This document shows positions 9,466 to 64,000 of a stretch of DNA of 64,000 nt, in pieces (the stretch's first letter is position 1; the number at the start of each line of letters is the position of its first letter). The position numbers and the translations under genes are program-made. The stretch is from Frankiaceae bacterium (GTDB lineage Bacteria; Actinomycetota; Actinomycetes; Mycobacteriales; SCTD01): contig CANKBT010000001.1 in the NCBI GenBank assembly GCA_947479995.1, forward strand, positions 25,313 to 89,312, written 5' to 3'. Below the pieces are notes generated by a model. That model was not told the origin of the DNA. It was given only the letters and a program-made list of their open reading frames with translations, and searched no databases.

Positions 9466-10236
9466 GTGACTCAGCCGACCGATCTGCTCACGATCGACCA
9501 GCTGGCGCTGCAGTCCGGGATGACCGTGCGCACGTTGCGCTCGCACGCCTCGCGCGGCTTGCTGCAGCCGCCCATCATCCGGGGCCGGACCGGGTACTAC
9601 GGTCCGGCGCACCTGGCCCGGCTCGGGTTCATCCGCGACATGCAGGACGCCGGCTTCAGCCTCGCCAGCATCGAGCAGATCCTGGCCGGAGTGCCGGCGG
9701 ACGCCGGCGAGGCCGCGCTCAGCGTCATCCGCGGCCTGCTCGCCCCCTGGCGCAGCGAGCCGCCGGTGGTGTACGAGATCGAGGAGCTGCTCGGGCTGTT
9801 CGGGCCGCAGGCCGGGCCGGAGCACCTGGACGCGCTGATCGAGATGGGCGGTGCGGAGCTCACGCCGGACGGCCAGGTCCGGGTGGTGAGCCCCGGACTG
9901 CTCGCCGCCGGTGCCGAGGGCGCTCAAGCCGGCCTGCCCCTGGAGGGGATCCTGGAAGCCGGGCGGCTGGTCGCGACGTCGGCCCAGGAGGTGGCCGAGA
10001 GCTTCGTGGCGCTGTTCCGCGACAGCGTCTGGAAGGACTTCATCGACGCCGGCACGCCGGAGCAGGAGTGGGTGCGGATCACCGGCGTCCACGCGCGGCT
10101 CCAGCCGCTGGCGGTGCAGGCGTTCCTCAGCGCCTTCCAGCGCGCGATGAGCACGTCGGTGAGCTCGGCGCTCGGGCAGGAGCTCGGCGGGCAGGCCCAG
10201 GAGGCGCTCGACCGCCTGCTCGGCAAGACGGGCTGA
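9466..10236 (+). CDS. MerR-family transcriptional regulator
   Basis: N-terminal MerR HTH (LTIDQLALQSGMTVRTLRSHASRGLLQPP...GYYGPAHLARLGFIRDMQDAGFSLASI). Confidence 0.8.
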   Translation: MTQPTDLLTIDQLALQSGMTVRTLRSHASRGLLQPPIIRGRTGYYGPAHLARLGFIRDMQDAGFSLASIEQILAGVPADAGEAALSVIRGLLAPWRSEPPVVYEIEELLGLFGPQAGPEHLDALIEMGGAELTPDGQVRVVSPGLLAAGAEGAQAGLPLEGILEAGRLVATSAQEVAESFVALFRDSVWKDFIDAGTPEQEWVRITGVHARLQPLAVQAFLSAFQRAMSTSVSSALGQELGGQAQEALDRLLGKTG

Positions 10237-10255
10237 CGGTCCGTCGAGGCCCGGC

Positions 10256-11917
10256 TCAGCCGGGCACCCTGGCCCGCGCGGAGCGCTGACCGCCCAGGGC
10301 CGCCAGCTCGGTGGCCTCGGTCACCTTGACCCGGGGCCGCCCCGAGGCCTGACCGCGGCTGCGCTCGACCGCGTCGATGCGCCGCCAGCCGTCGACGTCG
10401 GTGGCGTGCGGGCAGCGCTCGCGCACCAGCCGGTCGAACTCCGTCGCGGTTCTCGCGGGGTGCCCCACACGTCCGGCGTTGACGTCGTCGAGCAGCCGGT
10501 TGACGGTGTCGCGCGCGCAGCTCTTGTTGGTCCCGATGAACCCGGTGGGCCCGCGCTTGATCCAGCCGACGACGTACGTGCGGTCCCGGCCGAGCACGCG
10601 CCCGTCGTCGTTGGGGACGACGCCGCGGACGTCGTCGAAGGGCAGGTCGGGGACCGGAACCCCCCGGTACCCGATCGACCGCAGGACCAGGCCGGTCGGC
10701 AGCTCCTCGGTCGCGCCGGTCGGCACGGCCACCGGCCTGCCGTCGGCTCCGGCCGTCAGCTCGTTCTGCGCCAGGACCGCCGCTGTCACGCGGTCGGCGC
10801 CCAGCAGGGCCACCGGCGAGGTGAGGAAGCGCAGGACGATCCGCCGCCGCGCGCCCCGCGGCTGCTCGGCGGGAGGCAACGCCCGCACCGCTTCGACCTT
10901 CTGGGCCACCGCGTCGTCCGGCCCGGTGTAGGGCGCGGGAGGGGGACCGTGCCGGACGACCTCCAGGTCCGGGCGGGACAGCAGGCCGAGCAGCTCGGGC
11001 AGCGTGAAAGCGGCCTCCGCAGGGCTCCGTCGAGCCAGGACCACGACCTCGCGAACCTGACTGGCGCGCAGCGCCTGCAGCGCGACGTCGCTGATGTCCG
11101 TGGCGGCCAGTCGGTCCGGGTCGGTGGCGAGGATGCGGGCCACGTCGAGTGCGACGTTGCCGTTGCCGACCACCACGGCGCGCTCGGAGGTCAGGTCGTA
11201 GCTGTGGTCGGCGTGGTCGGGGTGGCCGTTGTACCAGGCGACGAAGCGTGTCGCGGTGTCGCTGCCGGTCAGGTCCTCGCCCGCGATGCCCAGCCGACGG
11301 TCGTGCGCGGCCCCGGTCGCGTAGACGACGGCCGAGTGACAGGACAGCAGCTCGTCGTGCGTGACGTCGCGGCCGACGTCGACGCCGAGCAGGTAGCGGA
11401 ACCCTGGGCGGTTCTCGATCTGCCAGAACAGCGAGGTGATCTTCTTGGTGTCGGGGTGGTCGGGGGCGACGCCGGAGCGCACCAGGCCGTACGGCGTCGG
11501 CAGCCGCTCCAGCACCGTCACCTCGACACCGCGCTGCTTGAGCAGCTCGTCCGCGGCGTAGAGCGCGGCCGGGCCCGACCCGACGACCGCGACCCGAAGC
11601 GGGAGCCGCTCGGGGTCGAGCCGGACGAGCCGGGGGACCGGCGCCTGCGCCGGCCGGCGCTCGGGGTAGCCGCTGTAGCGGGCGTTGACGTCCACGAAGG
11701 GGAGCTGCTCCGGGCGCAGCTTGCCGGCCGGGACGATCGCTCCGACGGGGCAGGCGTCGACGCACGCCCCGCAGTCCACGCACGCCACCGGGTCGATGTA
11801 GAGCATCTCGGCCGTGGCGAAAGCGGGGTCGTGCGGGTTGGGGTGGATCGCGTTGACCGGGCACGCGAACACGCAGGAGGCGTCGCTGCAGCAGGACTGC
11901 GTGATGACGTGCGGCAT
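10256..11917 (-). CDS. Ferredoxin-fused NADPH:ferredoxin oxidoreductase (FprB-like)
   Basis: The N-terminus has two Fe-S Cys clusters (CVFACPVNAI; CVDCGACVDACPVGAI). This is followed by an FprA-type flavoprotein (VAVVGSGPAALYAADEL; VVVGNGNVALDVARIL). Confidence 0.85.
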   Translation of the reverse strand: MPHVITQSCCSDASCVFACPVNAIHPNPHDPAFATAEMLYIDPVACVDCGACVDACPVGAIVPAGKLRPEQLPFVDVNARYSGYPERRPAQAPVPRLVRLDPERLPLRVAVVGSGPAALYAADELLKQRGVEVTVLERLPTPYGLVRSGVAPDHPDTKKITSLFWQIENRPGFRYLLGVDVGRDVTHDELLSCHSAVVYATGAAHDRRLGIAGEDLTGSDTATRFVAWYNGHPDHADHSYDLTSERAVVVGNGNVALDVARILATDPDRLAATDISDVALQALRASQVREVVVLARRSPAEAAFTLPELLGLLSRPDLEVVRHGPPPAPYTGPDDAVAQKVEAVRALPPAEQPRGARRRIVLRFLTSPVALLGADRVTAAVLAQNELTAGADGRPVAVPTGATEELPTGLVLRSIGYRGVPVPDLPFDDVRGVVPNDDGRVLGRDRTYVVGWIKRGPTGFIGTNKSCARDTVNRLLDDVNAGRVGHPARTATEFDRLVRERCPHATDVDGWRRIDAVERSRGQASGRPRVKVTEATELAALGGQRSARARVPG

Positions 11918-11921
11918 GCGG

Positions 11922-12983
11922 TCAGGCCGCGCTGAGGAAGGCCGGCGGCGGCTCGCTGCGGTACCGGCTGGCCGGCCCGTCGATCTTGCACTTGCGCCAC
12001 AGCTTGCGCGAGGCGCGGGTCATCAGGTTCGACTGCTCGGCGAGCATGCGGACGTCCCCGAACAGGTTCTGCAGCCGCTCCTGCGACTGCGGGGAGTCCC
12101 AGAACAGGTCGTTCTTGACCTCCTCCGGGATGTCGAACCGCTCCCAGAACTCGCGCGGCGGCACCATGATGGCGTCGCAGAGGTAGCGCATCAGCAGCGG
12201 GAGCACGAGAGCCGTCAGGTGGCGGCTGATCGGCTTGAGGTGCGGCGCGCGCAGCTTGACGGCTTCGTGCGCGAAGGAGATGTGCCGCGCCTCCTCGGCG
12301 ATGTGGATCGCCATGACGCGCGCCAGGACCGGCGGCAGGTTCTCGGCTGCCCGCAGGATCTCCTTCTGCGTGTGGTCGATCGGTTCCTCCCCGGCGAGGA
12401 TCCCCAGGAAGAAGATCACCGGGACGCTGTTGACGAGCATCGGGAGCACGGGGGCCAGGGCCCGCAGCGCCCGCGGCATGCCGGGCACGTCGGCCCCGAT
12501 ACGGTTCACCGCCTCCTGGAACATCTGGGTGTGGTGGCACTCCTCCGTCGCCTCGTGCGACAGGTAGCGGTACTCGGGCGAGCCGTTGGGCAGCGCGAAG
12601 ACGTACTGCATGATCGCGCGGATCAGGACGTTCTCGAACTGCAGCCCCACCTTCAGGACGTTGGCCTGCCGCCAGAGGCCGATCTCGATCTGCCGCTCCA
12701 GCGGCAGCGCCTGGTACCAGGGGTGGGCCCCGATGGGATCGGCGTGGGCCGGCAGGACCCACCGCGGGTCGTCCTTGCGCACCTGGAAGTCCGGGTCGTC
12801 CCACGGCACGTCGACGAACGCGTCGAAGTGCCGGGCGACCGAGGCCTCGGAGAGCTGGCGCAGCACCTGCTCGTACTCCGCACGCGTGCGGATGACGACG
12901 CGCTGTGCGGTCGGCGGCTCCGCGGCGCGCTCTGCGCGGGCACGGGAGGTCGCGGGGGAGGGGGCGGTCGCGAGGGGGGACAT
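11922..12983 (-). CDS. AurF-like ferritin-fold diiron oxygenase
   Basis: Two E..H diiron motifs (SHEATEECHHTQMF; HIAEEARHISFAHE). The start was chosen at ATG 12983 behind GGAGGA. The ORF-track start at 13079 lies in a lower-GC promoter region. The stop is 4 nt from the fprB-like start. Confidence 0.7.
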   Translation of the reverse strand: MSPLATAPSPATSRARAERAAEPPTAQRVVIRTRAEYEQVLRQLSEASVARHFDAFVDVPWDDPDFQVRKDDPRWVLPAHADPIGAHPWYQALPLERQIEIGLWRQANVLKVGLQFENVLIRAIMQYVFALPNGSPEYRYLSHEATEECHHTQMFQEAVNRIGADVPGMPRALRALAPVLPMLVNSVPVIFFLGILAGEEPIDHTQKEILRAAENLPPVLARVMAIHIAEEARHISFAHEAVKLRAPHLKPISRHLTALVLPLLMRYLCDAIMVPPREFWERFDIPEEVKNDLFWDSPQSQERLQNLFGDVRMLAEQSNLMTRASRKLWRKCKIDGPASRYRSEPPPAFLSAA

Positions 12984-50773: not shown

Positions 50774-52349
<1,576 letters not shown>

Positions 52350-52353
<4 letters not shown>

Positions 52354-54116
52354 CGGTCCCCTTCCGGGATCAGGGCGGCGGGGACGTCGACGACGCGGGC
52401 CCGCAGCCACTCGCCGAGCGCCTTGGCCTGCGGGTCGAAGCGGGTGGCCGCGGCGACGCCGTCGCCGAGCAGGCCGCGGACCTGGAACAGCACGGCCCGC
52501 AGCCCCGGCAGGACCTCCCGGTCGAGCGCGAGGTCGGCGGTCTCGGGCAGCAGCTCGCGCAGCCGGTCGGCGGTGAGGAACGCCGCCAGCCAGCGGTAGC
52601 CGTCGTCGCTGCGGGCGTAGACGCCGAGGGTGGCGTCGCCGCCCTTGTCGCCGCTGCGCGTGCCCGCGACGCGGCCGAGCGGGACGCGGACGGTGGGCCC
52701 GTCCGGGAGCGCGCTCGCGTCCAGCTCGGGGGCGGTGCGGCGATCGTGACCGCCTCCGGGGGCTGCGGTCGCGGAGGCGACCTGCTCGACGTTGCCGTCC
52801 GGCAGCGTGACGACCTGCGGGACCAGGTCGCCGCGCACCCAGGCCGGGGCGTACACGCCGTACGGCGACGGCGTCGGTGGGGCGGCAGTGGTGTGGAAGC
52901 CCGGCACGCTGGCCAGCGCGAGCTCGATGAGCGCAGCCGTGAAGGCCTTGCCGACCCTCTCGCGGTCGGCGTCCTTGACCGTGACGTGCAGCAGCGCCGC
53001 CGCCTCCTCCTGCGTCTCGGGGTCCGGACGGTCGGTGCGGGCCAGCGTGACGCGGACCTCCTCGACGCCGGCGAGCACGGGGGCGAGCTGCCGCTCGAGC
53101 AGGGCGGCCTTGCGTTCGACGTCCGGACCCGTCAGCGGGATCGTCACCGCGTTGCGGAAGCCGCCGAGGCGGTTCGTCGCCACCTTGAGCCAGCCCGACG
53201 GCGGCTCGCCGGTCGCGCCGGTGACCGCCACCCGGTCCGGGGCCTGCTGGGTCAGCCGGAGCGTGTCGAAGCGGGTGACGACGTCGGGCCCGCCGTACGA
53301 GGCGCCGGTGCACTCGTAGAGCAGCTGCTCGGTGACCGTCTCGACGGTCACCGCGCCGCCGGTGCCGGGGTGTTTGGTGACGACGGTGCTGCCGTCGGCG
53401 GCGATCTCGGCCAGCGGGAAGCCAGGGCGGTCCAGCGCTGCGGGGTCGCGCTCCAGCAGCTCGGCGAAGAAGCTGAAGTTGCCGCCGGTGGCCTGCGTGC
53501 CGCACTCCAGCACGTGCCCGGCGACGGTGGCGCCGGCCAGCGCGTCGAGGTCTGCCGGCGACCAGCCGTGGTGCCAGGCCGCGGCACCGACGACCAGGCT
53601 GGCGTCGGTGACCCGGCCGGTGACGACGACGTCGGCGCTGGCCTGCAGCGCGCGGACGATGCCGAAGCAGCCGAGGTAGGCGTTCGCCGTGAGCGCCCCC
53701 TCGACCGGGACGTCGCCGGGCGGACGCAGTCCGCTGCGGACGTCCAGCTCGCCCAGGCGGGGCAGCAGGTCGTCGCCGGCGACGGTCGCGACCCGCACCG
53801 GCACGCCGAGCCGCTGCCCGAGGTCTCTCACGGCAGCGGCGAGCCCGCCGGGGTTGAGCCCGCCGGCATTCGCGACGATCCGCACCCCGCCCTCGAGCGC
53901 CCGGCCCAGGCACTCCTCGACCTGGGTCAGGAAGGTGCGGGCCCAGCCGGCGTCGGCGTCCTTCATCCGCTGCCGACCCAGGATGAGCATGGTGAGCTCG
54001 GCCAGGTAGTCGCCGGTGATGACGTCGACGGGACCGCCGTCCAGCACCTCGCGCATCGCCGACAGGCGGTCGCCGTAGAACCCCGAGCAGTTGGCGACGA
54101 TCAGCGGGTCGGTCAC
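52350..54116 (-). CDS. AtuA-family (acyclic terpene utilisation, DUF1446) protein
   Basis: The GTG at 54116 overlaps the upstream stop. It has VANCSGFYGDRLSAMREVLDGGPVDVITGDYLAELTM. 588 aa. Confidence 0.8.
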
Positions 54117-54921
54117 CGCTGCGACTCCCGTCCGCTCCCGGGTGGGCCGGCGAACCCCTGCGCGATGCCCATCCACTCGTCGGCGAGCGGCCCGCGCGCC
54201 TCCAGCGCGAGGTCGTCGCGGTGCCGCCGCTGCGTGACCAGCAGGCAGAAGTCCAGTGCGGGTCCCCGCACGACGTCGGCGGCGTCCGGTGGTCCCCAGG
54301 ACCAGGCCTCGCCGTTCGGGCCGGTCAGCTCCACGCGCACCGGCGCGACCGGCGTCGGGCGGGCGTGGGCGGCGTAGGAGTACGGACGGGCGCGTACGCC
54401 GATCTCCGCGACCGAGCGCAGGCGGGCCGTCGCGGGCCGCGACTGGCCGAGCGCGGCGGCGACGTCCTGTCCGTGCGCCCAGGTCTCCATCAGCCGGGCG
54501 GTGACGAAGGAGGCCGGGCTCATGGGCGGTCCGAACCAGGGGACGCGGACCGCTGGGTCAGCAGCCCACAGCGCCTCCTGCAGCGCGTCGCGGCCGGCGC
54601 GCCATCCCGCCAGCACCTGCGCGGGAGACAGGGCCCTGCGCTGCGCGACCAGCCCCTCGACGTGCTCCTCCGCCCCGCCAGCAGCCGCCCGAGCAGGGCG
54701 TCGAAGCCCGCCCGGTCGGTGAGGGCGAGCAGCGCGTCCGCGTCCGTCGCAGCGAGGTGGTTGATCGTGTCGCGCACGTCCCAGCCGGCGGCCGGCGTCG
54801 GCGTCGACCAGCCCGCTTCGTCCAGTACGGCGACCCTCGTGTCGAGGTCCGCAGACTCAGCCGCCAGGTCGACCAGCAGCGCGTGCAGCAGCGCCCGCTT
54901 GTCGGTCGTCGGCGTCGTCAC
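54113..54921 (-). pseudogene. TIGR03084 / mycothiol-dependent DinB-fold protein, split by a single-base frameshift
   Basis: The N-terminal part is in ORF 54520..54921 (WDVRDTINHLAATDADALLALTDRAGFDALLG). The C-terminal part is in ORF 54113..54616, whose frame already reads AEEHVEGLVAQRRALSPAQVLAGW upstream of the listed start (LMETWAHGQDVA). The length is 3n-1. The junction is at about 54670-54700, most simply the CCCC run at 54673-54676. Confidence 0.7.
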
Positions 54922-56066
54922 GCGTCGAAGCCGTCGAGCTTGGCCAGCACCTGCAGCATCACCTCGTCGGCGCCGCCGCCGATGGACAGCAGCCGGCTGT
55001 CCCGGAAGAAGCGCGAGGTCCAGGTCTCCTCCATGTAGCCCACGCCACCGTGGAACTGCAGGCAGGTGTCAGCCACCTCGCGGACGAGCCGGCCGGACAC
55101 CAGCTTGGCGACCGTCGCCAGGCGGGTGGTGTCCTCACCGGCCATGTACGCCTCGGCGCACCGGTAGTTCTGCGCCTCCAGCAGGTCGGCCTGGGCGGAC
55201 AGCTCGGCCAGGCGGAAGGCGATGTACTGACTGGTCATCAGCGACTTGCCGAAGACCTCCCGCTGCTTGAGATAGTCGCTGGTGCGCCGCAGGGCCCTGC
55301 GCACGGAGGCGGGCACACCGTAGGCGGCGAACATGCGCTCCACGACGAACTGCGCCATCTGCTGCTGGAAGCCCCTGCCCTCGGTGCCGATCGTGTTCGC
55401 GACCGGGACCCGGACGTCCACGAACGACAGCTCCGCGGTGTCGGAGGAGCGGTTGCCCAGCTTGTCCAGCTTGCGAGACACCGTGAGGCCGGGGGAGGAG
55501 GTCTCCACCACGATCTGCGACATCCCGCGGTAGCCGCCGTCGTCGGAGGTGCGCGCCAGCAGGCACAGCCAATCGGCCTGGGTGCCGTTGGTGATGTAGA
55601 GCTTGCTGCCGTTGATGACCCACTCGTCGCCGTCGCGGACGGCCCGCGTGCGAATCGAGGCGACGTCGGAGCCCGCGCCGGCCTCTGTCACCGCGATGGA
55701 GCAGACCTGCGTACCGGCGATGGCGGGGGCCAGGTACCGCCGCTTGAGGTCGTCGCTGCCGAACTCGTGCAAAGACGGGGTCGCCATGCAGGTCTGCACG
55801 CCGATCGCCATCGGGATGCCGGCGGCTCCGGCGCGGGTGAGCTCCTCGCACAGGATCACCATGTACAGGTGGTCGGCGCCCTGGCCGCCGTATTCCGGGT
55901 CGTACTCGAGCCCCAACAACCCCAGCTCGCCGAGCTTGGGGAACAGCTCGTGGGCCGGGAACGTGCCCGCACGCTCCCAGTCGTCGACGTGCGGGGCGAT
56001 CTCCTGCTCCACGACATCGCGCACGACCTTGCGAAAGGCGCTGTGGTCGTCGGAGAAGCGCACCAC
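54918..56066 (-). CDS. Acyl-CoA dehydrogenase (first gene of the Atu/Liu-like operon)
   Basis: GTG 56066 behind ACAGGAG. It has VTEAGAGSDVASIRTRAVRDGDEWVINGSKLYITNG and FHGGVGYMEETWTSRFFRDSRLLSIGGGADEVM. Confidence 0.85.
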   Translation of the reverse strand: MVRFSDDHSAFRKVVRDVVEQEIAPHVDDWERAGTFPAHELFPKLGELGLLGLEYDPEYGGQGADHLYMVILCEELTRAGAAGIPMAIGVQTCMATPSLHEFGSDDLKRRYLAPAIAGTQVCSIAVTEAGAGSDVASIRTRAVRDGDEWVINGSKLYITNGTQADWLCLLARTSDDGGYRGMSQIVVETSSPGLTVSRKLDKLGNRSSDTAELSFVDVRVPVANTIGTEGRGFQQQMAQFVVERMFAAYGVPASVRRALRRTSDYLKQREVFGKSLMTSQYIAFRLAELSAQADLLEAQNYRCAEAYMAGEDTTRLATVAKLVSGRLVREVADTCLQFHGGVGYMEETWTSRFFRDSRLLSIGGGADEVMLQVLAKLDGFDA

Positions 56067-56155
56067 GAGGGGCTCCTGTCGTCGCGGCCATCGGTGTGAC
56101 GCCGCAACATAGCGCGAAGCGAGCCGGATGCATGCGGTCGTGACTGTATGTTCAA

Positions 56156-56749
56156 GTGGTGACCCTGAAGACGGCGAGGCGCACGCAGGCGGAGCGCTCG
56201 GCGACGACGCAGCGCCTGCTGCTCGACGCGACCGTGGCCTGCCTGGTGGAGCTCGGCTACGGCGGCACGACCACCTCCGCGGTCGCGGAGCGTGCCGGGG
56301 TCTCCCGCGGTGCCCAGCTGCACCACTACGGCACCCGGCAGCGGCTCATGGGCGCGGCGGTCGAGCACCTGGCGGCGCGCCGCCTGGAGTGGGTGCGCGA
56401 GAAGGCATCCCGGCTCCCGGACGACGACAGCCGCCCCCGCCGCGCGCTGGACCTGCTGGCCGAGGCGCTGTCGGGGCCGCTGTACGCTGCGACGCTGGAG
56501 CTGTACGTGGCGGCACGCGTGGACCGCCAGCTGCACGAGGCGCTCGTGCCGGTCGAGCAGCAGCTGACGCGGGAGCTGCGGCGGCTGTGCCGGGAGTACG
56601 TCACCGCCGACGCGGTGCTGGTGCAGCTGACGCTGGACCTGCTGCTCGGTAGAGGCGTCGGCTCGCTGCTCAGCCCGGTCCGACCCGGGCGGCAGCGACA
56701 GCTGCTCGATGCGTGGGCCGAGATCGTCGCGGCCGGTGCCGACCGATGA
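56156..56749 (+). CDS. TetR-family regulator, divergent from the Atu/Liu-like operon
   Basis: HTH motif TTSAVAERAGVSRGAQLHHYGTRQRL. GTG start. Confidence 0.85.
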   Translation: MVTLKTARRTQAERSATTQRLLLDATVACLVELGYGGTTTSAVAERAGVSRGAQLHHYGTRQRLMGAAVEHLAARRLEWVREKASRLPDDDSRPRRALDLLAEALSGPLYAATLELYVAARVDRQLHEALVPVEQQLTRELRRLCREYVTADAVLVQLTLDLLLGRGVGSLLSPVRPGRQRQLLDAWAEIVAAGADR

Positions 56750-57246
56750 GCATGTCGGACCCGGTCATCACCCGCTGGGCACAGGGGTTCTCGACCTCCG
56801 CTGGCCTGCCGTCGCACGAGGACGGGCTGCCGGCGCACCACCCGCAGTGCCTCGGCTGCGGCCCGGACAACCCGCACGGCCACCACCTGCAGGTGTGGCG
56901 GGATGGGGACCGGGTCAGGACGCGACACGTCTTCGACGCCCGGCACGTCGGCGCTCCCGGCATCGCCCACGGCGGCGCCGTGGCGACCGTGCTAGACGAC
57001 CTGTTCGGCTTCGTGCTCTACGTCGTCGGCGACCTCGCCGTCACCCGGCACCTGGAGGTGGGCTACCGGGCGCCGGTGCTGCTCGGAGTGCCGTACCTGC
57101 TCGAGGCCGGGCTGGACCGCCGCGAGGGCCGGAAGCTGTTCGTCTCCGCGCGCGGCGTCGACGAGGACGGCGCGCTGGTGGTCGAGGCGCAGGCGGTCTT
57201 CATCGTGGTGGAGCTGCAGCACTTCTCGAGAGGAAGCCGAAGATGA
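56746..57246 (+). CDS. PaaI/hotdog-fold thioesterase
   Basis: The ATG at 56746 overlaps the TetR stop (ATGA). It has HHPQCLGCGPDNPHG and the hotdog core GIAHGGAVATVLDDLFG. Confidence 0.75.
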   Translation: MSMSDPVITRWAQGFSTSAGLPSHEDGLPAHHPQCLGCGPDNPHGHHLQVWRDGDRVRTRHVFDARHVGAPGIAHGGAVATVLDDLFGFVLYVVGDLAVTRHLEVGYRAPVLLGVPYLLEAGLDRREGRKLFVSARGVDEDGALVVEAQAVFIVVELQHFSRGSRR

Positions 57247-58307
57247 GCCGGGTGCTGCTGGACTACCCGCACCGGGGCGCCGGCCACTGTGGATCCGGTG
57301 CGCTGCGCGACCTGCTGGACTGGGCTGGCCTGGGCTGGGACGGCCCGCCGGACGAGGGCCTGGTGTTCGGCCTGGGCGGCGGGCTCGGCTTCGCCTACCT
57401 GCGGGTGCCCGGGCTCGTGCCGCCGGTCTACCTGGTCGGCCGCGGAGGGGACCTGGAGGTCGACCTGCTCGCCCGCCTGGGCGCGACGGTCGACCTGCGC
57501 CGCACCGACGACCCGGTGCTCGGATGGCAGTGGGTCCGGGACGAGCTCGACGCCGGCCGGCCGGTGATGGTCTGGGCCGACATCGCCGAGCTGCCCTACC
57601 TGCGGGTGCGCCTGCAGATGAGTCGGCACGACATCGTGGTGATCGGCTACGACGACGACGAGCAGGTCGCCTACGTCGTCGACAACGACCGTGAGGACGT
57701 GCAGCGGGTGCCGTACGACGCGCTCGCCCGGGCACGCAGCTCGCGATCCTTTCCGGAGCCGACCCGGCACGCCACGTTCGCCACGGCCTGGCCCCCGCAA
57801 CTGCCGGACCTCGCTGCCGTGGCCGCCGACGCCTTCGCCGCCTCGGCAGCGAGCATGCGGACGGGTGGCGCGGACCTGGTCGACCGGTCGCTGCTGCCGG
57901 CGGGCTCGATCAGCGGCACCGGGCTGGCCGGCGTGCAGGCGCTGGCCGACGACGTCGCGACGTGGGCGGACGTGCTGGACGAGGCGCCCCTGGAGTCGGC
58001 GCTGCGCGCGCTGCCGGTGTTCGTCGAGAAGGCCGGCACCGGCGGGGGGCTGTTCCGACGGCTGCAGGTTGCCTGCTGCCGCGACGTCGCCAGTCGCACC
58101 GGCAGTGCGGCCAGCCGGGCCGCAGGGGAGGCGTACGACCTGTGCGCGCAGGCGTGGAGCGCGCTCGGCGCAGCCGCGGTGTCGGACCGGCCGCTGGCCG
58201 ACCGTGCACGGAACTCCGCGGCCGCGGCGCGGTCGCTGCCGACGCTCGAGCAGAACGCCGCCGAGGCCCTGCAGGCGGCGGCGGACGAGCTCCGACACCC
58301 TCGGTGA
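57243..58307 (+). CDS. BtrH N-terminal domain / DUF4872-like protein
   Basis: The ATG at 57243 overlaps the thioesterase stop (ATGA). It has HRGAGHCGSGALRDLLDW...GRPVMVWADIAELPYL...HDIVVIGYDD, a papain-like Cys/His layout as in BtrH_N. The family call is by eye. Confidence 0.55.
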   Translation: MSRVLLDYPHRGAGHCGSGALRDLLDWAGLGWDGPPDEGLVFGLGGGLGFAYLRVPGLVPPVYLVGRGGDLEVDLLARLGATVDLRRTDDPVLGWQWVRDELDAGRPVMVWADIAELPYLRVRLQMSRHDIVVIGYDDDEQVAYVVDNDREDVQRVPYDALARARSSRSFPEPTRHATFATAWPPQLPDLAAVAADAFAASAASMRTGGADLVDRSLLPAGSISGTGLAGVQALADDVATWADVLDEAPLESALRALPVFVEKAGTGGGLFRRLQVACCRDVASRTGSAASRAAGEAYDLCAQAWSALGAAAVSDRPLADRARNSAAAARSLPTLEQNAAEALQAAADELRHPR

Positions 58308-60547
58308 GCGCGCTCGAGCGGCTGGGCCGCTGGTGCGCCGCGCACGGCTGGCCGGTGGTCCTGGTCTGGGTGCAGGTGCTGCTGCTGGTCCTCGGGCTCG
58401 CGGTGGCCGGGGCTCGAGCACGAGCGACGACTTCACCGTGCCGGGCTCGGGCAGCAGGCAGGCGCTGGACCTGCTCAACGAGCGCTTCCCCGCCCGAGCG
58501 GGGGTGCAGGGCCTGCTGGTCGTCAAAGTCGAGGACGGCGACCTGCAGGCGCCGGGCCCCCGGGCCGCCGTCGGCGCCGTTGCGGAACGGCTCGCGGCGG
58601 AGCCCGGTGTCAGCTCGGTCGTCCTGCCCGAGGACCAGCGCGCCGGCGGCAGGATCAGCGCCGACGGCAAGACGGGGGTGCTCGTCTTCGCCCTGGACAA
58701 GGCGCCGGGCGAGGCAGCGCCAGGTGACGTCGAGCGGGTCCTGCGGGCGGCGGCGCCCGCGCGCGCGGCGGGCCTGCAGACGGAGGTCGGCGGAGCGGTC
58801 GCCGTCGCGGCCAGCCGCCCGGAGACCGGCGCGGCAGAGCTGGTCGGGCTGACCGCCGCCGCCCTGATCCTGCTCGTCGCGTTCGGCTCCGCCGTGGCGA
58901 TGTCGCTGCCGCTCGTCACGGCGCTCGTCGGGCTCGGCATCGGCCTGGCGGCGCTCAGCGCGCTGGGTTCGGCGCTGGACATCCCGGCGGTCGCCCCCAG
59001 CCTCGCCACGATGATCGGGCTCGGTGTGGGCATCGACTACGCCCTGTTCGTGGTCACGCGCTACCGGACGCAACTGGCAGCGGGGATGCCGGTGCCGGAC
59101 GCAAGCGCCCGCGCCACGGCGACCTCCGGGGCCGGCTGTCGTCTTCGCCGGCGTCACCGTCATGATCGCCATCTGCGGCCTGGCGATCGCGGGGGTGCCC
59201 CTGATCGCCGCGCTCGGCTACGCCACCAGCCTCGTCGTCGCCCTGGCCGTGCTCGCCGCGATCACCCTGCTGCCCGCCCTGCTGGGCCTGCTGGGCCCGC
59301 GCATCGACCGGCTGAGGCTCCCGGGAACCGGTCGCGGCAACCGCAACGGGTGGCAGCGGTGGTCGCAGAAGATCGCCCGCCACCCTTGGGCGGCCGTCGG
59401 GCTGAGCCTGGCTGTCCTGCTCGCGCTGGCCGCGCCGGCACTGAGCCTGCGCCTCGGGCAGCCGGACAGCGGCAGCGCCTCGACCGGCACCACCGAGCGA
59501 CGGGCGTACGACCTGCTGGCGGCGGGCTTCGGGCCGGGCACCAACGGCCCGCTGCTGCTCGCGGTCGAGCTGGCTGAGCCGGCCCGCCCCGGTGCGGCGT
59601 CGGGAGCGGACAGGACGCCGTCTGCCGACCTTAGGGGCAGCGATCCGCGCCTGGTCCGGCTCGTCACCGGGCTCGGCGAGTTGCCCGGCGTGGCAGACGT
59701 GGCGCCGCCGGTGGTCGGACCCGACGGGCGGGCTGTGGTGATCGCGCTCGTCCCGACGACCTCGCCGCAGGACCCCCGTACCGCCACGCTGATCGACCGG
59801 CTGCGCGAGGACGTCCTGCCCGTTCTCGCTGCGCCGGGCGACCGCGTCTACGTCGGCGGCCAGACCGCCATCTTCGTCGATCTCGCCGACCGCGTCGCCC
59901 AGCGGCTGCCCTGGTTCATCGGCGCGGTCGTCCTGCTCTCCTGTCTTCTGCTGACCCTGGTCTTCCGGTCCCTGCTCATCCCACTGCAGGCCGCCGTCAT
60001 GAACGTGCTCTCGATCGGCGCCGCTCTCGGCGTTGTCGTGGCGGTGTTCCAGCAGGGCGTGGGGCTGGGCCTGGTCGGACTCGAGGAGACCGTCCCGATC
60101 ATCAGCTTCGTCCCGCTGATGATGTTCGCCATCCTGTTCGGCCTGTCCATGGACTACCAGGTCTTCCTGCTCTCCTCCGTACGGGAGGCGTGGCTGGACA
60201 GCGACGACAACCAGGAAGCCGTCACCACCGGACTGGCCGCGACCGGCCGGGTGATCACCTCAGCAGCGCTGATCATGATGGCGGTCTTCGGCAGCTTCGT
60301 CCTCAGCGACGACCCGTTGTTGAAGATCTTCGGGCTGGGGCTGACCGTCGCGATCCTGCTCGACGCGACAGTCGTGCGGTGCGTGCTCGTCCCGGCGGTG
60401 ATGGTGCTGTGTGGACGGGCGAACTGGTGGTTGCCGTCGACGCTCGGCCGGCGCCTCCCGCGGTTCGACCTCGAGTCCGCGGGAGCCGCCACGCGCGATC
60501 CCGCTCCGTCCACGACGGCGATCAGTGCCATGCCGGAGAACCCCTGA
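58304..60547 (+). pseudogene. MMPL/RND-family transporter carrying two compensating single-base frameshifts
   Basis: The GTG at 58304 overlaps the upstream stop (GTGA). Segment 1 (VSALERLGRWCAAHGWPVVLVWV...LAVAG) runs to the GGGG at 58409-58412. Segment 2 is in another frame (SSTSDDFTVPGSGSRQALDLLNERFP...GIDYALFVVTRYRTQL) and runs to the GGGG at 59128-59131. Segment 3 returns to the first frame (AVVFAGVTVMIAICGL...LSMDYQVFLLSSVREA). Confidence 0.8.
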
Positions 60548-60721
60548 CCTGACCCACCGGCGGCTGGGTAGTGGCTGGAATCGCTGCGGGACGGGATCCG
60601 CACCGCGTCGCGTGGTGCCAGCGTGGTGGCCAGCTGCAGCCGTCCAGCGCCATTCGTCGTCGTCCGCCGGAGTCGCCATACCTCCCCTGACCTGCGGTTA
60701 TGTACTTCGGCGGACCAGCCC

Positions 60722-60784
60722 GGACAGACCTTGATCACGCTGGCAGTGTGGGGGTCAGGGGTTCGAGTCCCCTCAGCTCCACCC
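60722..60784 (+). ncRNA. ssrA: Orphan 3'-terminal fragment of tmRNA (ssrA): T-arm, acceptor 3' strand and ACC
   Basis: AGGGG-TTCGAGT-CCCCT (60757-60773), then CAGCTCC-A-CC (60774-60783). This is the tmRNA-type acceptor end (it pairs with 5'-GGGGCUG). No matching 5' strand, tag ORF or pseudoknot region is evident upstream. The left boundary is uncertain. Confidence 0.5.
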
Positions 60785-60790
60785 GCGACA

Positions 60791-60818
60791 GGGCCTCCGA
60801 CCACACGGTCGGGGGCCC
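60791..60818 (+). terminator. Hairpin immediately after the tmRNA-like 3' end
   Basis: 12-bp stem GGGCCTCCGACC/GGTCGGGGGCCC (one G-U pair) with loop ACAC, starting 7 nt after the ACC. Confidence 0.45.
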
Positions 60819-61171
60819 TCGTGCGTGGCGGCGCCGGTGCGGCACCGGCACAGGAGTGCCTCACGAGCCTCTTGCTGCGGCGCCGGGCGTTGGCAGCGGC
60901 GGGCCTGCCCCGACGGCGACCGTCCCCATGCCCTGTCGGGGCAGCGCGACAACGCCGCAATCGCGATCAGGCTGTCCACAGACTGCGTGCGTGAGGCACT
61001 CCCCATGCTGCGCTTGAGTCGTCTCACAAGCGAGCTTGACGAAATGGCGCGAGAACGACTCTCAGTGGACTTCACAGTGAGGAGGAGCTCTCGGCCGCAG
61101 GATCGGCCGCCTCGCGCGTCCTGCCTCGCGAAGCTGCCACACATGCCAGTAGTGGTCGATAGCGTCACCCC

Positions 61172-64000
61172 GTGTCCCTCGCCGCCGATCTCCGCCCGGT
61201 CGCCGACCTCCCCTCCGTCGGTCAACTCGTCAGCGTGAGAGCCCGCAACTGGGTCGTGACCGACGTCCAGCCCAGCGCTCTGCCGTACGACGTCGCGGGC
61301 ATCGGTCAGGCGGAGGGGGCGACCTTCGTCAGCCTCAGCAGCGTCGAGGACGACGGGCTGGGGGAGGAGCTGCGCGTCCTGTGGGAGCTGGAGTCGGGGC
61401 GGCGGGTCCTGAACCGCGCCACCCTCCCGGACGTGGGCGAGGGGCGCTTCGACGACCCGGCCCAGCTCGGCGCCTTCCTCGACGCACTCCGCTGGGGCGC
61501 GGTCACCAGCGCCGAGACCACCGTCCTGCAGGCGCCGTTCCGGGCGGGCATCGCGGTCGAGGACTACCAGCTCGAGCCGGCCATCCGTGCCTTGCGCCTG
61601 CCCCGCGTCAACCTGCTGGTCGCTGATGACGTCGGTCTGGGCAAGACGATCGAGGCCGGCCTGGTCGTCCAGGAGCTCCTGCTCCGCAGCCGGGTCCGCC
61701 GGGTCATGGTGGTCTGCCCCGCGCACCTGACAGACAAGTGGCACGACGAGATGCTCGACCGGTTCGGCCTGGACTTCACGGTCGTCAACAGCGACACCGT
61801 CAGTCAGGTCCGTCGCGAGCGAGGTCTGCACGCCAACCCGTTCAAGGTCTACCCCTACACGATCGTGAGCCTGGCGTGGCTGCGCGGGCCCAAGGCGGGC
61901 CGTCTGCTCGACGAGGTGCTGTCGCACGGCGGTCCCGGGCGTGCCCGGCCGCTCGACCTGCTCATCGTCGACGAGGCGCACCACGTCGCGCCGCCCGGCA
62001 AGGGCCAGTACGCCGTCGACAGCCAGCAGACCAAGGTTGTCAAGCGGCTCGCCGACCAGGCCGAGCACCGGCTGTTCATGTCCGCGACGCCGCACAACGG
62101 CTACGCCGAGTCCTTCACCGCCCTGCTGGCGATGCTCGACCCGCAGCGCTTCGCCCGGGGGGTCGTGCCGGACCCGGCGGCGCTCAAGCAGATCCTCGTC
62201 CGCCGGCTGAAGACCGAGATCACCAACGCCGACGGCAGCCCGCGCTACCCGGCACGTGAGGCCAAGGACATCACCGTCACCTACCCCGAGGTCGAGCTGC
62301 AGGTCCAGCAGCTGCTCGCCGACTACACGCGAGCGCGCTCCGCCAAGGCCGCAGCCGCCCGCGCCAAGGCGAAGAAGGCAGGCATCGACCTGCTCGGCCT
62401 GCTGCTGAAGAAGCGCTACTTCAGCAGCCCAGCGGCGTTCAGCAGCACGATCCTGCAGGTCCGCGAGAACACGTTGCGCCCCGACCTGCAGTGGCCCAGC
62501 GACGACTACGCCATCGAGATCGACACCGATTACGCCCACGGCCTCGACGAGGACCGCCAGCAGCTGCTCGACGGCGACTTCTACGACGATGACGCCGTCG
62601 ACGCCGCCGAGCAGGAGGCACTCGCCAAGGCCCAACGCGCGGCAGGCGAGGCGGACGAGCGGGAGGCAGAGCTGCTGCAGCAGCTCTGCGCCTGGGCCGA
62701 GCAGCACGGACACGAGACGGACGCCAAGGCCCGCGCCCTGCTCGACTTCCTGCGCGCCACCTGCCTGACCGACGGCGCCTGGAACGACGAGCGCGTCGTC
62801 GTCTTCACCGAGTACCGCGACACCCAGACCTGGCTGCTCGACCTGCTCGAGCGCCACGGCCTCGCGGAGCCCGGCCGGGTCGAGCTGCTGTACGGCGGCA
62901 TGGACGACGACAAGCGCGCCGCCGTCATGCGCGCCTTCCAGCGCGACCCCGAGCAGCACGCGCTGCGCATCATCCTGGCCACCGACACCGCCAGCGAGGG
63001 CGTCGACCTGCAAACCTACTGCCACCGGCTGGTCAACTACGATCTGCCGTTCAACCCGAACCGCATGGAGCAGCGCGCCGGCCGCATCGACCGGTACGGG
63101 CAGAAGCACGTGCCGCTCGTCTACCACTTTGCCGGCAGCGACTGGCAGACCGCGAGCCAGGACAGCCTGCAGGGCGACCTGCAGTTCCTCATCATCATCG
63201 CGCGCAAGATCGCCACGGCGCGCGAGGACCTCGGGAGCGTCAACCCCGTCATCAGCGACGCCGTGGAGCGCCGCATGCTCGGCCGGCCTGCCCGTGACTT
63301 CGACGTCGACCGGACCCTCGCGAAGGCCAAGGCCGACCCCGCGCTCAAGGTGGAGCGGCAGCTGCGCGAGGAGACCGCCCGGCTCGCCGCCACCCTCGAC
63401 GACAGCCGGCGCCAGCTGCACTGCTCACCGGCTGACATCGAGCGCGTCGTCCGCACCGGCCTGGCACTCGGTCGCCAGCCCGACCTCACGCCCGAGGACC
63501 GCGACGGCCACACCGTCTTCCACGTCGGCACCCTCACCGGCTCCTGGGCGCGCAGCGTCACCGACCTCACCGACCCCGACTACGGCCAGCGCCCCATCTC
63601 CTTCGACCCGGCGTACGCCGCTACCCGCCCCGACGTCGTCCTCGCCCACCTCAACCACCGCCTGGTCGCGATGGCGACCCGCCTGCTCCGCGCCGAGGTC
63701 TGGGGCAGCGACCGCAGCAGCCTCGCCCGAGTGGCCAGCATCCGGGTCGAGGGTCTGCAGACCGAGGTCCTCGCGGCCTACAGCCGCCTCGTCCTCATCG
63801 GCGCCGACGGCCAGCGACTGCACGAGGAGCTCGTCCCTGCCGGCGGCCTGCTGCGCGACGGCTCCTTCAACCGCCTGGGCGTCGGAGACCTCGCCGCCAG
63901 CCTCGACGCCGCCCTCGGCCCGGACGCTCGCCCCGCCGCAGCCGGGGAACAGGCCCGCCAGGCGCTCGTCGCTGCCTGGCCGAGGGTCAGCGGCAACCTG
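61172..64000 (+). CDS. SNF2-family helicase, DrmD-like (3' end lies outside the window)
   Basis: This is not in the ORF track because it has no stop. An in-frame TAG lies at 61160-61162 and the first start is GTG 61172. The frame then stays open for 943 codons to position 64000. Motifs: VADDVGLGKTIEAG (I), LLIVDEAHHV (II), MSATPHNG (III), ILATDTASEGVDLQ (V) and NPNRMEQRAGRIDRYGQ (VI). It has an N-terminal domain of about 150 aa (GQLVSVRARNWVVTDV...LRVLWELE...ALRWGAVTSA) and a long C-terminal extension. The confidence value is for the SNF2 call; the DrmD assignment is about 0.45. Confidence 0.8.
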   Translation, partial: MSLAADLRPVADLPSVGQLVSVRARNWVVTDVQPSALPYDVAGIGQAEGATFVSLSSVEDDGLGEELRVLWELESGRRVLNRATLPDVGEGRFDDPAQLGAFLDALRWGAVTSAETTVLQAPFRAGIAVEDYQLEPAIRALRLPRVNLLVADDVGLGKTIEAGLVVQELLLRSRVRRVMVVCPAHLTDKWHDEMLDRFGLDFTVVNSDTVSQVRRERGLHANPFKVYPYTIVSLAWLRGPKAGRLLDEVLSHGGPGRARPLDLLIVDEAHHVAPPGKGQYAVDSQQTKVVKRLADQAEHRLFMSATPHNGYAESFTALLAMLDPQRFARGVVPDPAALKQILVRRLKTEITNADGSPRYPAREAKDITVTYPEVELQVQQLLADYTRARSAKAAAARAKAKKAGIDLLGLLLKKRYFSSPAAFSSTILQVRENTLRPDLQWPSDDYAIEIDTDYAHGLDEDRQQLLDGDFYDDDAVDAAEQEALAKAQRAAGEADEREAELLQQLCAWAEQHGHETDAKARALLDFLRATCLTDGAWNDERVVVFTEYRDTQTWLLDLLERHGLAEPGRVELLYGGMDDDKRAAVMRAFQRDPEQHALRIILATDTASEGVDLQTYCHRLVNYDLPFNPNRMEQRAGRIDRYGQKHVPLVYHFAGSDWQTASQDSLQGDLQFLIIIARKIATAREDLGSVNPVISDAVERRMLGRPARDFDVDRTLAKAKADPALKVERQLREETARLAATLDDSRRQLHCSPADIERVVRTGLALGRQPDLTPEDRDGHTVFHVGTLTGSWARSVTDLTDPDYGQRPISFDPAYAATRPDVVLAHLNHRLVAMATRLLRAEVWGSDRSSLARVASIRVEGLQTEVLAAYSRLVLIGADGQRLHEELVPAGGLLRDGSFNRLGVGDLAASLDAALGPDARPAAAGEQARQALVAAWPRVSGNL

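What the first reader, a model, noticed from the sequence alone, without database searches (positions are those of the whole stretch)
61172..64000. Unlisted open-ended SNF2 helicase ORF: probably the first gene of a defence locus (DISARM class-1-like) that runs off the window
The + strand frame starting at GTG 61172 is open for 943 codons to the last base of the window. The supplied track shows only its 882-aa antisense shadow (60773..63421). The product has all the SNF2 motifs (DDVGLGKTIEAG, DEAHH, SATPHNG, NPNRMEQRAGRIDRYGQ). It also has a distinctive N-terminal domain and a C-terminal extension of more than 250 aa. To my recollection, the block ...LRWGA.TSA....LQAPFRAGI.VEDYQLEP..RAL.LPRVNLLVADDVGLGKTIEAG matches the SNF2-like DrmD helicase of DISARM class 1 rather than a RapA/HepA type. 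The gene sits next to a tmRNA-end fragment, which is a classic island integration site. It is unrelated in function to the lipid-metabolism genes on its left. If partner genes lie downstream, this is the edge of a multi-gene defence system whose composition cannot be seen here. It could be a known DISARM system or a variant.
Basis: partly seen in the sequence, partly recalled or inferred. Interest (0 to 1): 0.7.

Follow-up and report, generated by a model that had tools for sequence, protein, structure and literature searches.

The report
Class 1 DISARM anti-phage operon start
The open-ended gene at the right edge of the window is the first gene (DrmD) of a complete, ordinary class 1 DISARM anti-phage system; its only unusual feature is an extra FRG-domain gene inserted in the middle of the operon.

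Summary
GTG 61172 opens a 943-codon frame that runs to the window end (GC3 0.945). The listed 882-aa antisense ORF is its shadow. The product is DrmD: NCBIfam DISARM_DrmD scores 1139.9 bits against a cutoff of 610, while RapA scores 165 against 576.

I recovered the window's own contig, which is identical over 12,829 overlapping bases. Downstream on the same strand lie DrmD (1061 aa), DrmMI (1375 aa), an FRG-domain protein (305 aa, PADLOC candidate PDC-S15), DrmA, DrmB and DrmC. Most junctions have overlapping stop and start codons. A GmrSD-type restriction gene, a DUF559 gene and a HEC-07-like gene follow on the other strand.

One detail needs correcting. The "tmRNA-end fragment" is the 3' 44 nt of tRNA-Ala(GGC), from anticodon loop to acceptor end, which is an integrase att footprint. 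Its orientation puts the element that split the tRNA on its left, so it does not delimit the DISARM island.

The only non-standard feature is a low-GC block comprising the C-terminal half of DrmMI plus the FRG gene. Gene embedding in DISARM is already described. This is a new member of a known kind, of modest interest.

The parts
61172..64000 (+). drmD, first 943 of 1061 codons. It encodes the SNF2-like helicase of class 1 DISARM. The gene ends 357 nt beyond the window, at window-equivalent position 64357.
   Evidence: The frame is open. NCBIfam DISARM_DrmD scores 1139.9 bits against a cutoff of 610, and PADLOC DrmD scores 1173.7 bits. Pfam finds SNF2-rel_dom and Helicase_C. P0001 is the identical full-length protein, and its gene start was called at the same GTG. 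GC3 is 0.945.
60740..60783 (+). Orphan 3' half of tRNA-Ala(GGC): anticodon loop CTGGCAG, the 3' anticodon stem, variable loop, T arm and 3' acceptor strand. This is an att-type footprint of an integrative element. No 5' half is present anywhere in the window.
   Evidence: Rfam gives only a sub-threshold tmRNA-clan match (19.9 bits, GA 47). The same 27-mer is the 3' end of a tRNA-Ala gene in 28 of 36 metagenome loci scanned, of a tmRNA in 1, and lies outside any called gene in 7. The full gene reads GGGGCTGTGGCGCAGCTGGTAGCGCACCACACTGGCAGTGTGG..., and at least 15 other orphan copies begin at the same CTGGCAG. The window holds no tRNA or tmRNA and no 5' half.
60784..60828 (+). G+C-rich hairpin directly after the tRNA-Ala 3' half. 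It has no T tail and looks like the terminator of the original tRNA gene.
   Evidence: The 91-nt fold has dG -57 kcal/mol and z -4.3, and 0 of 200 shuffles fold as well. Its sequence resembles the downstream flank of an intact tRNA-Ala(GGC) in L065 and of the orphan copy in L113 (by eye). The consensus terminator scan finds nothing, because it requires a T run.
60829..61171 (+). Non-coding leader upstream of drmD. Its DNA is not conserved in the related DISARM loci fetched.
   Evidence: blastn homology to the relatives L015, L002, L147 and L001 begins 15-48 nt inside drmD, not upstream. A blastn of window 59000-61171 against L001-L023 gave no hit. No sigma-70-like promoter was found, but that scan is not suited to actinobacteria.
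60773..63421 (-). 882-aa antisense ORF. It is a shadow of drmD, not a gene and not part of the system; it is listed here to settle the point.
   Evidence: Codon position 1 of this ORF is position 3 of drmD, with GC 0.95/0.43/0.75 over the overlap. It has no Pfam family.

Best explanation
The ORF is drmD, the first gene of a complete class 1 DISARM anti-phage operon. The operon runs off the window and continues on the same contig as drmD-drmMI-[FRG gene]-drmA-drmB-drmC, about 14.8 kb on one strand.

The mechanism below is inferred from the Serratia class 1 system and the DrmAB structures; none of it is shown here. DrmMI places N6-methyladenine on a non-palindromic host motif as a self mark. The DrmA-DrmB helicase complex is held inactive by a loop in DrmA. 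It loads on single-stranded 5' ends of incoming phage or plasmid DNA and is stimulated more by unmethylated DNA. It then blocks replication or recruits a nuclease such as the PLD protein DrmC. DrmD is an SNF2-type dsDNA translocase that works with DrmMI as an accessory module, and its exact role is unknown.

The operon sits in a small defence island together with a GmrSD type IV restriction enzyme, which acts on modified DNA. The island carries one embedded extra gene, an FRG-domain protein. Others have predicted this domain to be an ADP-ribosyltransferase-fold NADase effector. The FRG gene arrived together with a new DrmMI C-terminal half on a low-GC recombination block.
For: - **DrmD identity.** NF038317 scores 1139.9 bits against a cutoff of 610 on the truncated protein. 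PADLOC DrmD scores 1173.7 bits, or 1278.8 on the full-length protein. All helicase motifs are intact and there are no internal stops in 1061 codons.
- **Same contig.** L024 positions 1-12829 equal window 51172-64000 with 0 mismatches.
- **Partner genes.** DrmMI scores 1499.4 bits with PADLOC, hits Pfam Eco57I and MmeI_Mtase, and carries NPPF at residue 900. DrmA scores 1260.7 bits on NF038325 (cutoff 950) and matches the solved Serratia DrmA 7s9v at E 3e-236. DrmB scores 652.7 bits on NF038324 (cutoff 240). DrmC scores 190.8 bits on NF038319 (cutoff 133) and has an HxK(x)4D motif at residue 196.
- **Operon structure.** Stop and start codons overlap at four junctions (ATGA or TGATG), and the FRG-drmA gap is 50 nt.
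- **Relatives.** Systems with 73-85% identical DrmD have the same order without the FRG gene.
- **Horizontal origin.** GC is 0.69-0.72 in drmD against 0.74-0.78 in the genes to the left. Relatives carry the cassette at unrelated chromosomal sites: after coaE in L147/L148, after a tRNA Gly-Cys-Val cluster in L015, and next to phage GP88 and PDC-M09 genes in L002.
- **Neighbouring defence genes.** GmrSD_N plus GmrSD_C, DUF559, and a HEC-07/NsnC-like gene.
- **Mechanism literature.** bioRxiv 10.1101/2021.12.28.474362 and PMC9142583.
Against: - Nothing functional was tested. There are no expression, methylation or phage-resistance data for this metagenome-assembled genome.
- In the one studied class 1 system, single-gene deletions did not abolish protection and DrmC was dispensable. 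The role of DrmD in particular is not established.
- NCBIfam has no DrmMI model, so DrmMI membership rests on PADLOC and Pfam.
- DrmMI also scores 731 bits on a PADLOC type IIG restriction-methylase model.
- The last 2.9 kb of the contig could not be read, and no integrase or second att repeat was found, so the island's borders are unknown.
Confidence: 0.93

Rival explanations
1. A housekeeping SNF2 ATPase of the RapA/HepA type, which recycles RNA polymerase, that merely happens to lie at the window edge.
For: RapA chains are the only solved structures that match DrmD by sequence, at about 105 bits over residues 143-327, the SNF2 N-lobe only. The NCBIfam RapA model gives 165 bits.
Against: RapA's 165 bits is far below its cutoff of 576, whereas DrmD scores 1139.9 against 610 across nearly the whole length. 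The downstream genes are DrmMI, DrmA, DrmB and DrmC. The gene is not syntenic among relatives.
Confidence: 0.01
2. The SNF2 helicase belongs to a different methylase-linked defence system, such as BREX (BrxHI/HII), Hma (HmaA), Dpd (DpdE) or a PLD-helicase system, rather than DISARM.
For: PADLOC gives secondary hits to BrxHI (260 bits), BrxHII (255), HmaA (252), DpdE (about 150) and PLD_Helicase (105). These families share the SNF2 core.
Against: These scores are 4-10 times lower than the DrmD score and cover only the helicase core, residues ~115-650. No PglX/PglZ/BrxC, HmaB/C or Dpd genes follow. Instead there is a full DrmMI-DrmA-DrmB-DrmC set.
Confidence: 0.02
3. A decayed or inactive DISARM remnant: the genes are recognisable but the system no longer works, for example because the low-GC block carrying the FRG gene disrupted it.
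For: The block replaced the C-terminal half of DrmMI and separated drmMI from drmA. The neighbouring MMPL gene appears frameshifted, so pseudogenes or assembly errors do occur nearby.
Against: All six ORFs are full length with no internal stops, and their catalytic motifs are intact: GxGKT, DEAH/DELH, NPPF and HxK(x)4D. Translational coupling is preserved across the insertion, with TGATG at the drmMI/FRG junction. Each protein covers its family profile end to end.
Confidence: 0.05

Closest known systems
Class 1 DISARM of Serratia sp. SCBI (drmD-drmMI-drmA-drmB-drmC plus drmMII; Aparicio-Maldonado et al., bioRxiv 10.1101/2021.12.28.474362; DrmAB structures 7S9V/7S9W, PMC9142583)
   Same: The five class 1 genes are the same and in the same order on one strand. 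DrmA matches the solved Serratia DrmA at E 3e-236. DrmD, DrmA, DrmB and DrmC all pass NCBIfam's curated cutoffs.
   Different: No cytosine methylase DrmMII was seen in the part read. An extra FRG-domain gene lies between drmMI and drmA. The host is a high-GC actinobacterium, so the DrmMI target motif is probably different (inference from the divergent C-terminal region).
Class 1 DISARM of close relatives: Jatrophihabitans sp. MAGs (L147/L148, DrmD 85% identical) and Geodermatophilus nigrescens DSM 45408 (L002, 82%). NCBI already names both proteins 'DISARM system SNF2-like helicase DrmD'.
   Same: The cassette is colinear, with 79-86% DNA identity through drmD, the first half or more of drmMI (its first ~2-3.3 kb, depending on the relative), drmA and drmB.
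   Different: The relatives have no gene between drmMI and drmA; the gap there is 90 nt or an overlap. Identity of the DrmMI C-terminal ~400 aa drops to 45-51% against L147 and 16-31% against L002. The chromosomal location differs in each.
Genes embedded in defence systems, and PADLOC candidate PDC-S15 (Payne et al., bioRxiv 10.1101/2024.01.29.577857)
   Same: The FRG protein hits 14 PDC-S15 models, the best at 110.5 bits. [quoted passage not shown] Other class 1 DISARM loci fetched here carry unrelated embedded genes at the same drmMI-drmA junction: RelA_SpoT, a UvrD helicase and a tyrosine recombinase.
   Different: None of the 25 related DISARM loci fetched carries an FRG gene. The nearest FRG homologue is only 61% identical. 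No paper in the library mentions both the FRG domain and DISARM. I found no experimental test of PDC-S15.
GmrSD/BrxU-type type IV restriction enzymes placed beside methylation-based systems
   Same: A 620-aa protein with GmrSD_N and GmrSD_C domains and a DGQQR motif lies directly after drmC, convergently oriented. Pairing a system that attacks unmodified DNA with one that attacks modified DNA is a described theme (discussion of BrxU).
   Different: It lies on the opposite strand and is adjacent rather than embedded. No functional link has been shown.

Membership tests
DISARM class 1 | SNF2-like helicase DrmD (Pfam SNF2-related domain plus Helicase_C; NCBIfam equivalog NF038317) | tested here: met
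   The 943-aa window fragment scores 1139.9 bits against a cutoff of 610, covering profile positions 2-904 of 1021. Pfam SNF2-rel_dom scores 44.9 and Helicase_C 61.2 bits. PADLOC DrmD scores 1278.8 bits on the full protein.
DISARM class 1 | N6-adenine DNA methyltransferase DrmMI directly downstream of drmD | tested here: met
   A 1375-aa ORF overlaps the drmD stop by 4 nt. It scores 1499.4 bits on PADLOC DrmMI, hits Pfam Eco57I and MmeI_Mtase, and has the NPPF catalytic motif at residue 900. NCBIfam has no DrmMI model; only weak PglX hits were returned.
DISARM class 1 | Core helicase DrmA | tested here: met
   NF038325 DISARM_DrmAS scores 1260.7 bits against a cutoff of 950. The protein matches PDB 7s9v DrmA at E 3e-236. 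GGGKT and DELH motifs are present.
DISARM class 1 | DUF1998 (MZB) protein DrmB | tested here: met
   NF038324 DrmB_fam scores 652.7 bits against a cutoff of 240. Pfam MZB is recorded for the protein. A CxxC pair lies at residue 593.
DISARM class 1 | PLD-domain nuclease DrmC | tested here: met
   NF038319 DISARM_DrmC_I scores 190.8 bits against a cutoff of 133. Pfam PLDc_2 is recorded. The motif HAKIAVAD (HxK(x)4D) lies at residue 196.
DISARM class 1 | All genes colinear on one strand as one operon | tested here: met
   The order is drmD-drmMI-FRG-drmA-drmB-drmC, all on the + strand. Stop and start codons overlap at four junctions and there is one 50-nt gap.
DISARM class 1 | Protection against phage or plasmid DNA, and methylation of a host motif | not testable with these tools
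   This requires cloning, phage assays and methylome sequencing.
RapA/HepA housekeeping SNF2 | NCBIfam RapA equivalog (NF003426) at or above its cutoff | tested here: not met
   The score is 165.3 bits against a cutoff of 576, and the match is limited to the helicase lobes.
FRG-domain proteins / PADLOC PDC-S15 (the embedded gene) | Pfam FRG domain (PF08867) with the conserved [FYW]RG motif | tested here: met
   The score is 72 bits against a cutoff of 25, over residues 45-134. W48-R49-G50 is invariant in 45 homologues. The best PDC-S15 model scores 110.5 bits.
FRG-domain proteins / PADLOC PDC-S15 (the embedded gene) | ADP-ribosyltransferase-superfamily fold, as proposed in PMC9503650 | tested here: inconclusive
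tRNA/tmRNA-targeted genomic island | Island flanked by an intact target gene on one side and a direct repeat of its 3' part on the other, with an integrase inside | tested here: not met
   Only one 44-nt tRNA-Ala(GGC) 3' half is present. The window and L025 contain no intact tRNA or tmRNA and no 5' half. No second copy lies within 17.6 kb to the right. No integrase appears among the called genes. The last 2.9 kb of the contig were not seen.

The most novel reading that the evidence does not exclude
The FRG-domain gene (PDC-S15 family) is not a passive passenger. On this reading it is a working second effector wired into the DISARM operon: an ADP-ribosyltransferase-fold NADase or ADP-ribosylating enzyme, translationally coupled to DrmMI. 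It would have been acquired in one recombination event together with a new DrmMI specificity region. It would then add an abortive-infection or back-up layer when phages escape the DrmAB mechanism. The FRG homologue placed directly after an MmeI-type methylase in a PLD-SNF2 system (L151) hints at a recurring methylase-FRG linkage.
Probability: 0.3. Interest if true: 0.45.

Novelty: new member of a known kind. Interest (0 to 1): 0.27.

Why it matters
The finding mainly corrects annotation. An ORF that the gene track missed because it runs off the window is the entry point to a 14.8-kb defence operon and a small defence island in an uncultured high-GC actinobacterium. It adds one more intact class 1 DISARM system, a class for which the role of DrmD is still unknown. 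It also gives a clean natural example of how such operons diversify: a low-GC block swaps the methylase's C-terminal half and brings in an untested candidate defence gene (FRG/PDC-S15) at a junction where other DISARM loci carry other embedded genes. This could guide experiments on embedded genes, but it does not change what is known about DISARM.

Tried and rejected
1. **tmRNA reading of the fragment.** Rfam gives only 19.9 bits against a GA of 47, and ARAGORN finds nothing. An exact-match scan of metagenome contigs followed by ARAGORN showed the same 27-mer is overwhelmingly the 3' end of tRNA-Ala, mostly GGC. The tmRNA reading is rejected.
2. **The fragment as the left border of the DISARM island.** Its orientation and terminator-like hairpin fit the right-hand (attR) repeat of an element to its left. 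No second repeat or integrase was found to the right. This is not supported but not fully excluded, because tandem islands remain possible and 2.9 kb were not read.
3. **Recovering the exact DrmB protein to reach the contig end.** The search with the partial DrmB did not return the contig's own protein. I reached DrmC and beyond through the FRG protein instead.
4. **Conserved DNA upstream of drmD.** No homology was found with relatives, and the simple scans found no sigma-70-like promoter or T-tailed terminator.
5. **FRG inside other DISARM loci.** There is none in the 25 loci examined. One FRG homologue look-up found nothing on record, and one homologue is stand-alone among metabolic genes.
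7. **Antisense 882-aa ORF as a gene.** Rejected.
Full report
**Observation.** Translating window 61172-64000 (+) gives 943 codons with no stop. An in-frame TAG lies at 61160, so GTG 61172 is the first possible start. Codon-position GC is 0.76/0.45/0.945. The ORF lister omits ORFs that run off the window and shows only the antisense ORF 60773..63421 of 882 aa. Codon position 1 of that ORF coincides with position 3 of the sense gene (GC 0.95), and it has no Pfam match. It is a shadow ORF of the kind common in high-GC genomes.

**Identity of the protein.** Pfam finds an SNF2-related domain and Helicase_C. NCBIfam's equivalog model DISARM_DrmD (NF038317) scores 1139.9 bits against a curated cutoff of 610 and covers profile positions 2-904 of 1021, even though the protein is truncated. 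RapA scores 165 bits against a cutoff of 576, and DpdE scores 193 against 500. PADLOC's DrmD model scores 1173.7 bits. The BREX, Hma and Dpd helicase models score 150-260 bits, and only over the helicase core. One PADLOC model labelled DrmA (PDLC02572) scores 1003 bits on this protein; it appears to be mislabelled. No DrmD structure has been solved: the only PDB sequence matches are RapA chains over the N-lobe.

**Finding the rest of the locus.** A protein search returned P0001, which is 1061 aa and 100% identical over all 943 residues. Its encoding contig is a 104,056-bp metagenome scaffold (ENA ERZ28612979, scaffold_1651). This scaffold is identical to the window over the 12,829 overlapping bases, so it is the window's own source. 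A look-up through the FRG protein P0241 extended the view to 17.6 kb beyond the start of drmD.

**Gene order on the + strand.**

| Gene | Length (aa) | Main evidence |
|---|---|---|
| drmD | 1061 | see above |
| drmMI | 1375 | PADLOC DrmMI 1499.4 bits; Pfam Eco57I/MmeI_Mtase; NPPF at residue 900 |
| FRG-domain gene | 305 | Pfam FRG 72 bits; PADLOC PDC-S15 110.5 bits |
| drmA | 1277 | NF038325 1260.7 bits (cutoff 950); E 3e-236 to solved Serratia DrmA 7s9v |
| drmB | 639 | NF038324 652.7 bits (cutoff 240) |
| drmC | 254 | NF038319 190.8 bits (cutoff 133); HxK(x)4D at residue 196 |

All six ORFs are free of internal stops. Four junctions have overlapping stop and start codons, and the FRG-drmA gap is 50 nt. 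Convergent with the operon lie three more genes: a GmrSD-type type IV restriction enzyme (620 aa, both Pfam domains, DGQQR motif), a DUF559 protein, and a gene with weak HEC-07/NsnC similarity.

**Relatives.** The closest DrmD proteins are 82-88% identical. They come from Jatrophihabitans-like MAGs, Geodermatophilus nigrescens and uncultured actinomycetes, and NCBI already names several of them "DISARM system SNF2-like helicase DrmD". Their loci read drmD-drmMI-drmA-drmB(-drmC) with nothing between drmMI and drmA. The cassette sits at a different chromosomal site in each:
- after rpsA/coaE in L147 and L148;
- 230 bp after a tRNA Gly-Cys-Val cluster in L015;
- 5.4 kb after tRNA-Val in L001;
- next to a phage GP88-like gene and PDC-M09 genes in L002.

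DNA homology with all of them starts 15-48 nt inside drmD, not upstream. In the window, GC falls from 0.74-0.78 in the genes to the left to 0.69-0.72 in drmD. Together these points indicate a horizontally moving cassette.

**The "tmRNA" fragment.** Rfam gives a sub-threshold tmRNA-clan hit at 60750-60784 (19.9 bits against a GA of 47). No tRNA or tmRNA gene is found in the window or on the extended contig. I scanned metagenome contigs for the exact 27-mer AGGGGTTCGAGTCCCCTCAGCTCCACC and ran ARAGORN on 36 of the hits. The 27-mer was the 3' end of a tRNA-Ala gene, mostly GGC, in 28 loci. It was the end of a tmRNA in 1 locus, and it lay outside any called gene in 7.

Alignment of the flanks shows that window 60740-60783 equals the 3' 44 nt of the actinobacterial tRNA-Ala(GGC), from the anticodon loop CTGGCAG to the acceptor end. 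At least 15 other orphan copies in metagenomes begin at exactly the same base. That is the expected footprint of integrases that cross over in the anticodon loop. The fragment is followed by a strong hairpin that resembles the native downstream flank of intact tRNA-Ala genes (by eye).

In the standard arrangement, an orphan 3' half followed by native flank is the right-hand repeat of an element that lies to its left. The tRNA 5' half is absent from the window. The genes to the left are lipid-metabolism genes and an apparently frameshifted MMPL gene. The fragment is therefore a real integration scar, but it does not delimit the DISARM island. Tandem insertion at a former tRNA-Ala hotspot remains possible but is not shown.

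**The non-standard feature.** The FRG gene has GC 0.577, against about 0.71 for drmD, drmA, drmB and drmC. The low-GC stretch begins inside drmMI, near residue 700, and ends sharply at drmA. Over the same stretch, DrmMI identity to the Jatrophihabitans protein falls from 85-91% to 45-51%, and DNA homology to relatives is lost until drmA. The simplest reading (inference) is a single recombination that replaced the methylase's C-terminal half, including the target-recognition region, and brought in the FRG gene.

None of the 25 related DISARM loci carries an FRG gene. However, many carry other genes at the same drmMI-drmA junction: RelA/SpoT-like, a UvrD helicase and tyrosine recombinases. One locus (L013) has a DUF3800 gene between drmD and drmMI. 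One FRG homologue (59% identical) directly follows an MmeI-type methylase in a PLD-SNF2 system with overlapping stop and start. Another is stand-alone among metabolic genes.

The literature in the library covers this phenomenon. Payne et al. report that DISARM, BREX, Hma and type I RM systems often contain embedded genes, and that PADLOC's PDC models were built from them. The Aravind group classifies Frg as an ART-superfamily domain and a possible NADase effector. An AlphaFold2 model of the FRG protein is confident (pLDDT 92.4). Its best PDB matches are ADP-ribosylating toxins, but only weakly: TreTu at E 0.02 and CARDS toxin at E 1.8. The ART fold is consistent but not demonstrated. No paper mentions the FRG domain together with DISARM, and I found no experimental test of PDC-S15.

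**Mechanism.** This is inferred from the Serratia class 1 system and the DrmAB structures. DrmMI marks host DNA with m6A at a non-palindromic motif. DrmAB is autoinhibited by a trigger loop and loads on 5' single-stranded ends of invading DNA. Its ATPase is stimulated more by unmethylated DNA. It then blocks replication or recruits a nuclease, and DrmC is dispensable in the systems tested. DrmD and DrmMI act as an accessory module: their joint deletion nearly abolished protection against one phage. DrmD's molecular role is still open. Nothing here tests function.

**Verdict.** The system is a known type, and close relatives are already named as such in public databases. It counts as a new member of a known kind. 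The embedded FRG/PDC-S15 gene on a low-GC swap block is a modest point of interest, and the tmRNA claim is corrected to a tRNA-Ala(GGC) att scar.

Noticed in passing
L025 7974-10968 (window-equivalent ~66454-69448, beyond the window): A low-GC block (0.55-0.66, against ~0.71 in the flanking genes) covers the C-terminal half of drmMI and the whole FRG gene. DrmMI identity to the nearest relative drops from 85-91% to 45-51% across it. It looks like a single recombination that swapped the methylase's specificity region and brought in the embedded gene.
   Followed up: partly
L025 10001-10918 (FRG gene, 305 aa): The AlphaFold2 model is confident (pLDDT 92.4). Its best PDB fold matches are ADP-ribosylating toxins (TreTu, CARDS toxin), but only weakly. 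W48-R49-G50, S60 and E132 are conserved in 45 homologues (W48, R49, G50 and E132 invariant; S60 in at least 90%), which would fit an R-S-E type ART site. That last point is inference only.
   Followed up: partly
L005, L007, L012, L018, L019, L020, L022 (drmMI-drmA junction); L013 (drmD-drmMI junction): Other class 1 DISARM loci carry 1.2-4.8 kb of unrelated genes at the same junction where FRG sits here. These include a RelA/SpoT-like protein (L018), a UvrD-type helicase (L022) and tyrosine recombinases (L012, L020). A DUF3800 gene lies between drmD and drmMI in L013. The drmMI-drmA junction therefore looks like an insertion hotspot.
   Followed up: partly
window 57691-60547 (+): The MMPL transporter gene left of the tRNA fragment is split between two overlapping ORFs in different frames, 57691-59577 and 59024-60547. 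Each carries one MMPL domain. This is either a frameshifted pseudogene or an assembly error. The gene caller annotated only the second half (461 aa).
   Followed up: partly
window 60740-60828 (+) and metagenome loci L027, L033, L036, L051, L070, L073, L076, L095, L102, L113, L115, L120, L122, L132, L138: Many unrelated contigs hold orphan copies of the tRNA-Ala(GGC) 3' half that start at exactly the same anticodon-loop base, each with a different left flank. This implies a widespread set of integrative elements targeting this tRNA in actinobacteria.
   Followed up: partly
L025 17485-20918 (- strand; window-equivalent 75965-79398): Three genes lie convergent with the DISARM operon: a GmrSD-type type IV restriction enzyme (620 aa), a DUF559 (Vsr-like endonuclease fold) protein with a C-terminal extension, and a gene of 530 aa with weak HEC-07/NsnC similarity that runs off the stretch read.
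   Followed up: partly
PADLOC-DB model PDLC02572: This model is named DrmA but scores 1003-1102 bits end to end on DrmD proteins and does not hit the real DrmA here. It seems to be mislabelled and could cause DrmD to be called DrmA in automated runs.
   Followed up: no
L015 1681-2212: In the MAG with the most similar DrmD (88%), drmD starts 230 bp after a tRNA Gly-Cys-Val cluster. ARAGORN reads the Val tRNA with a 4-base anticodon, which is probably an indel error in a long-read assembly. drmD is likewise broken into several ORFs there.
   Followed up: no
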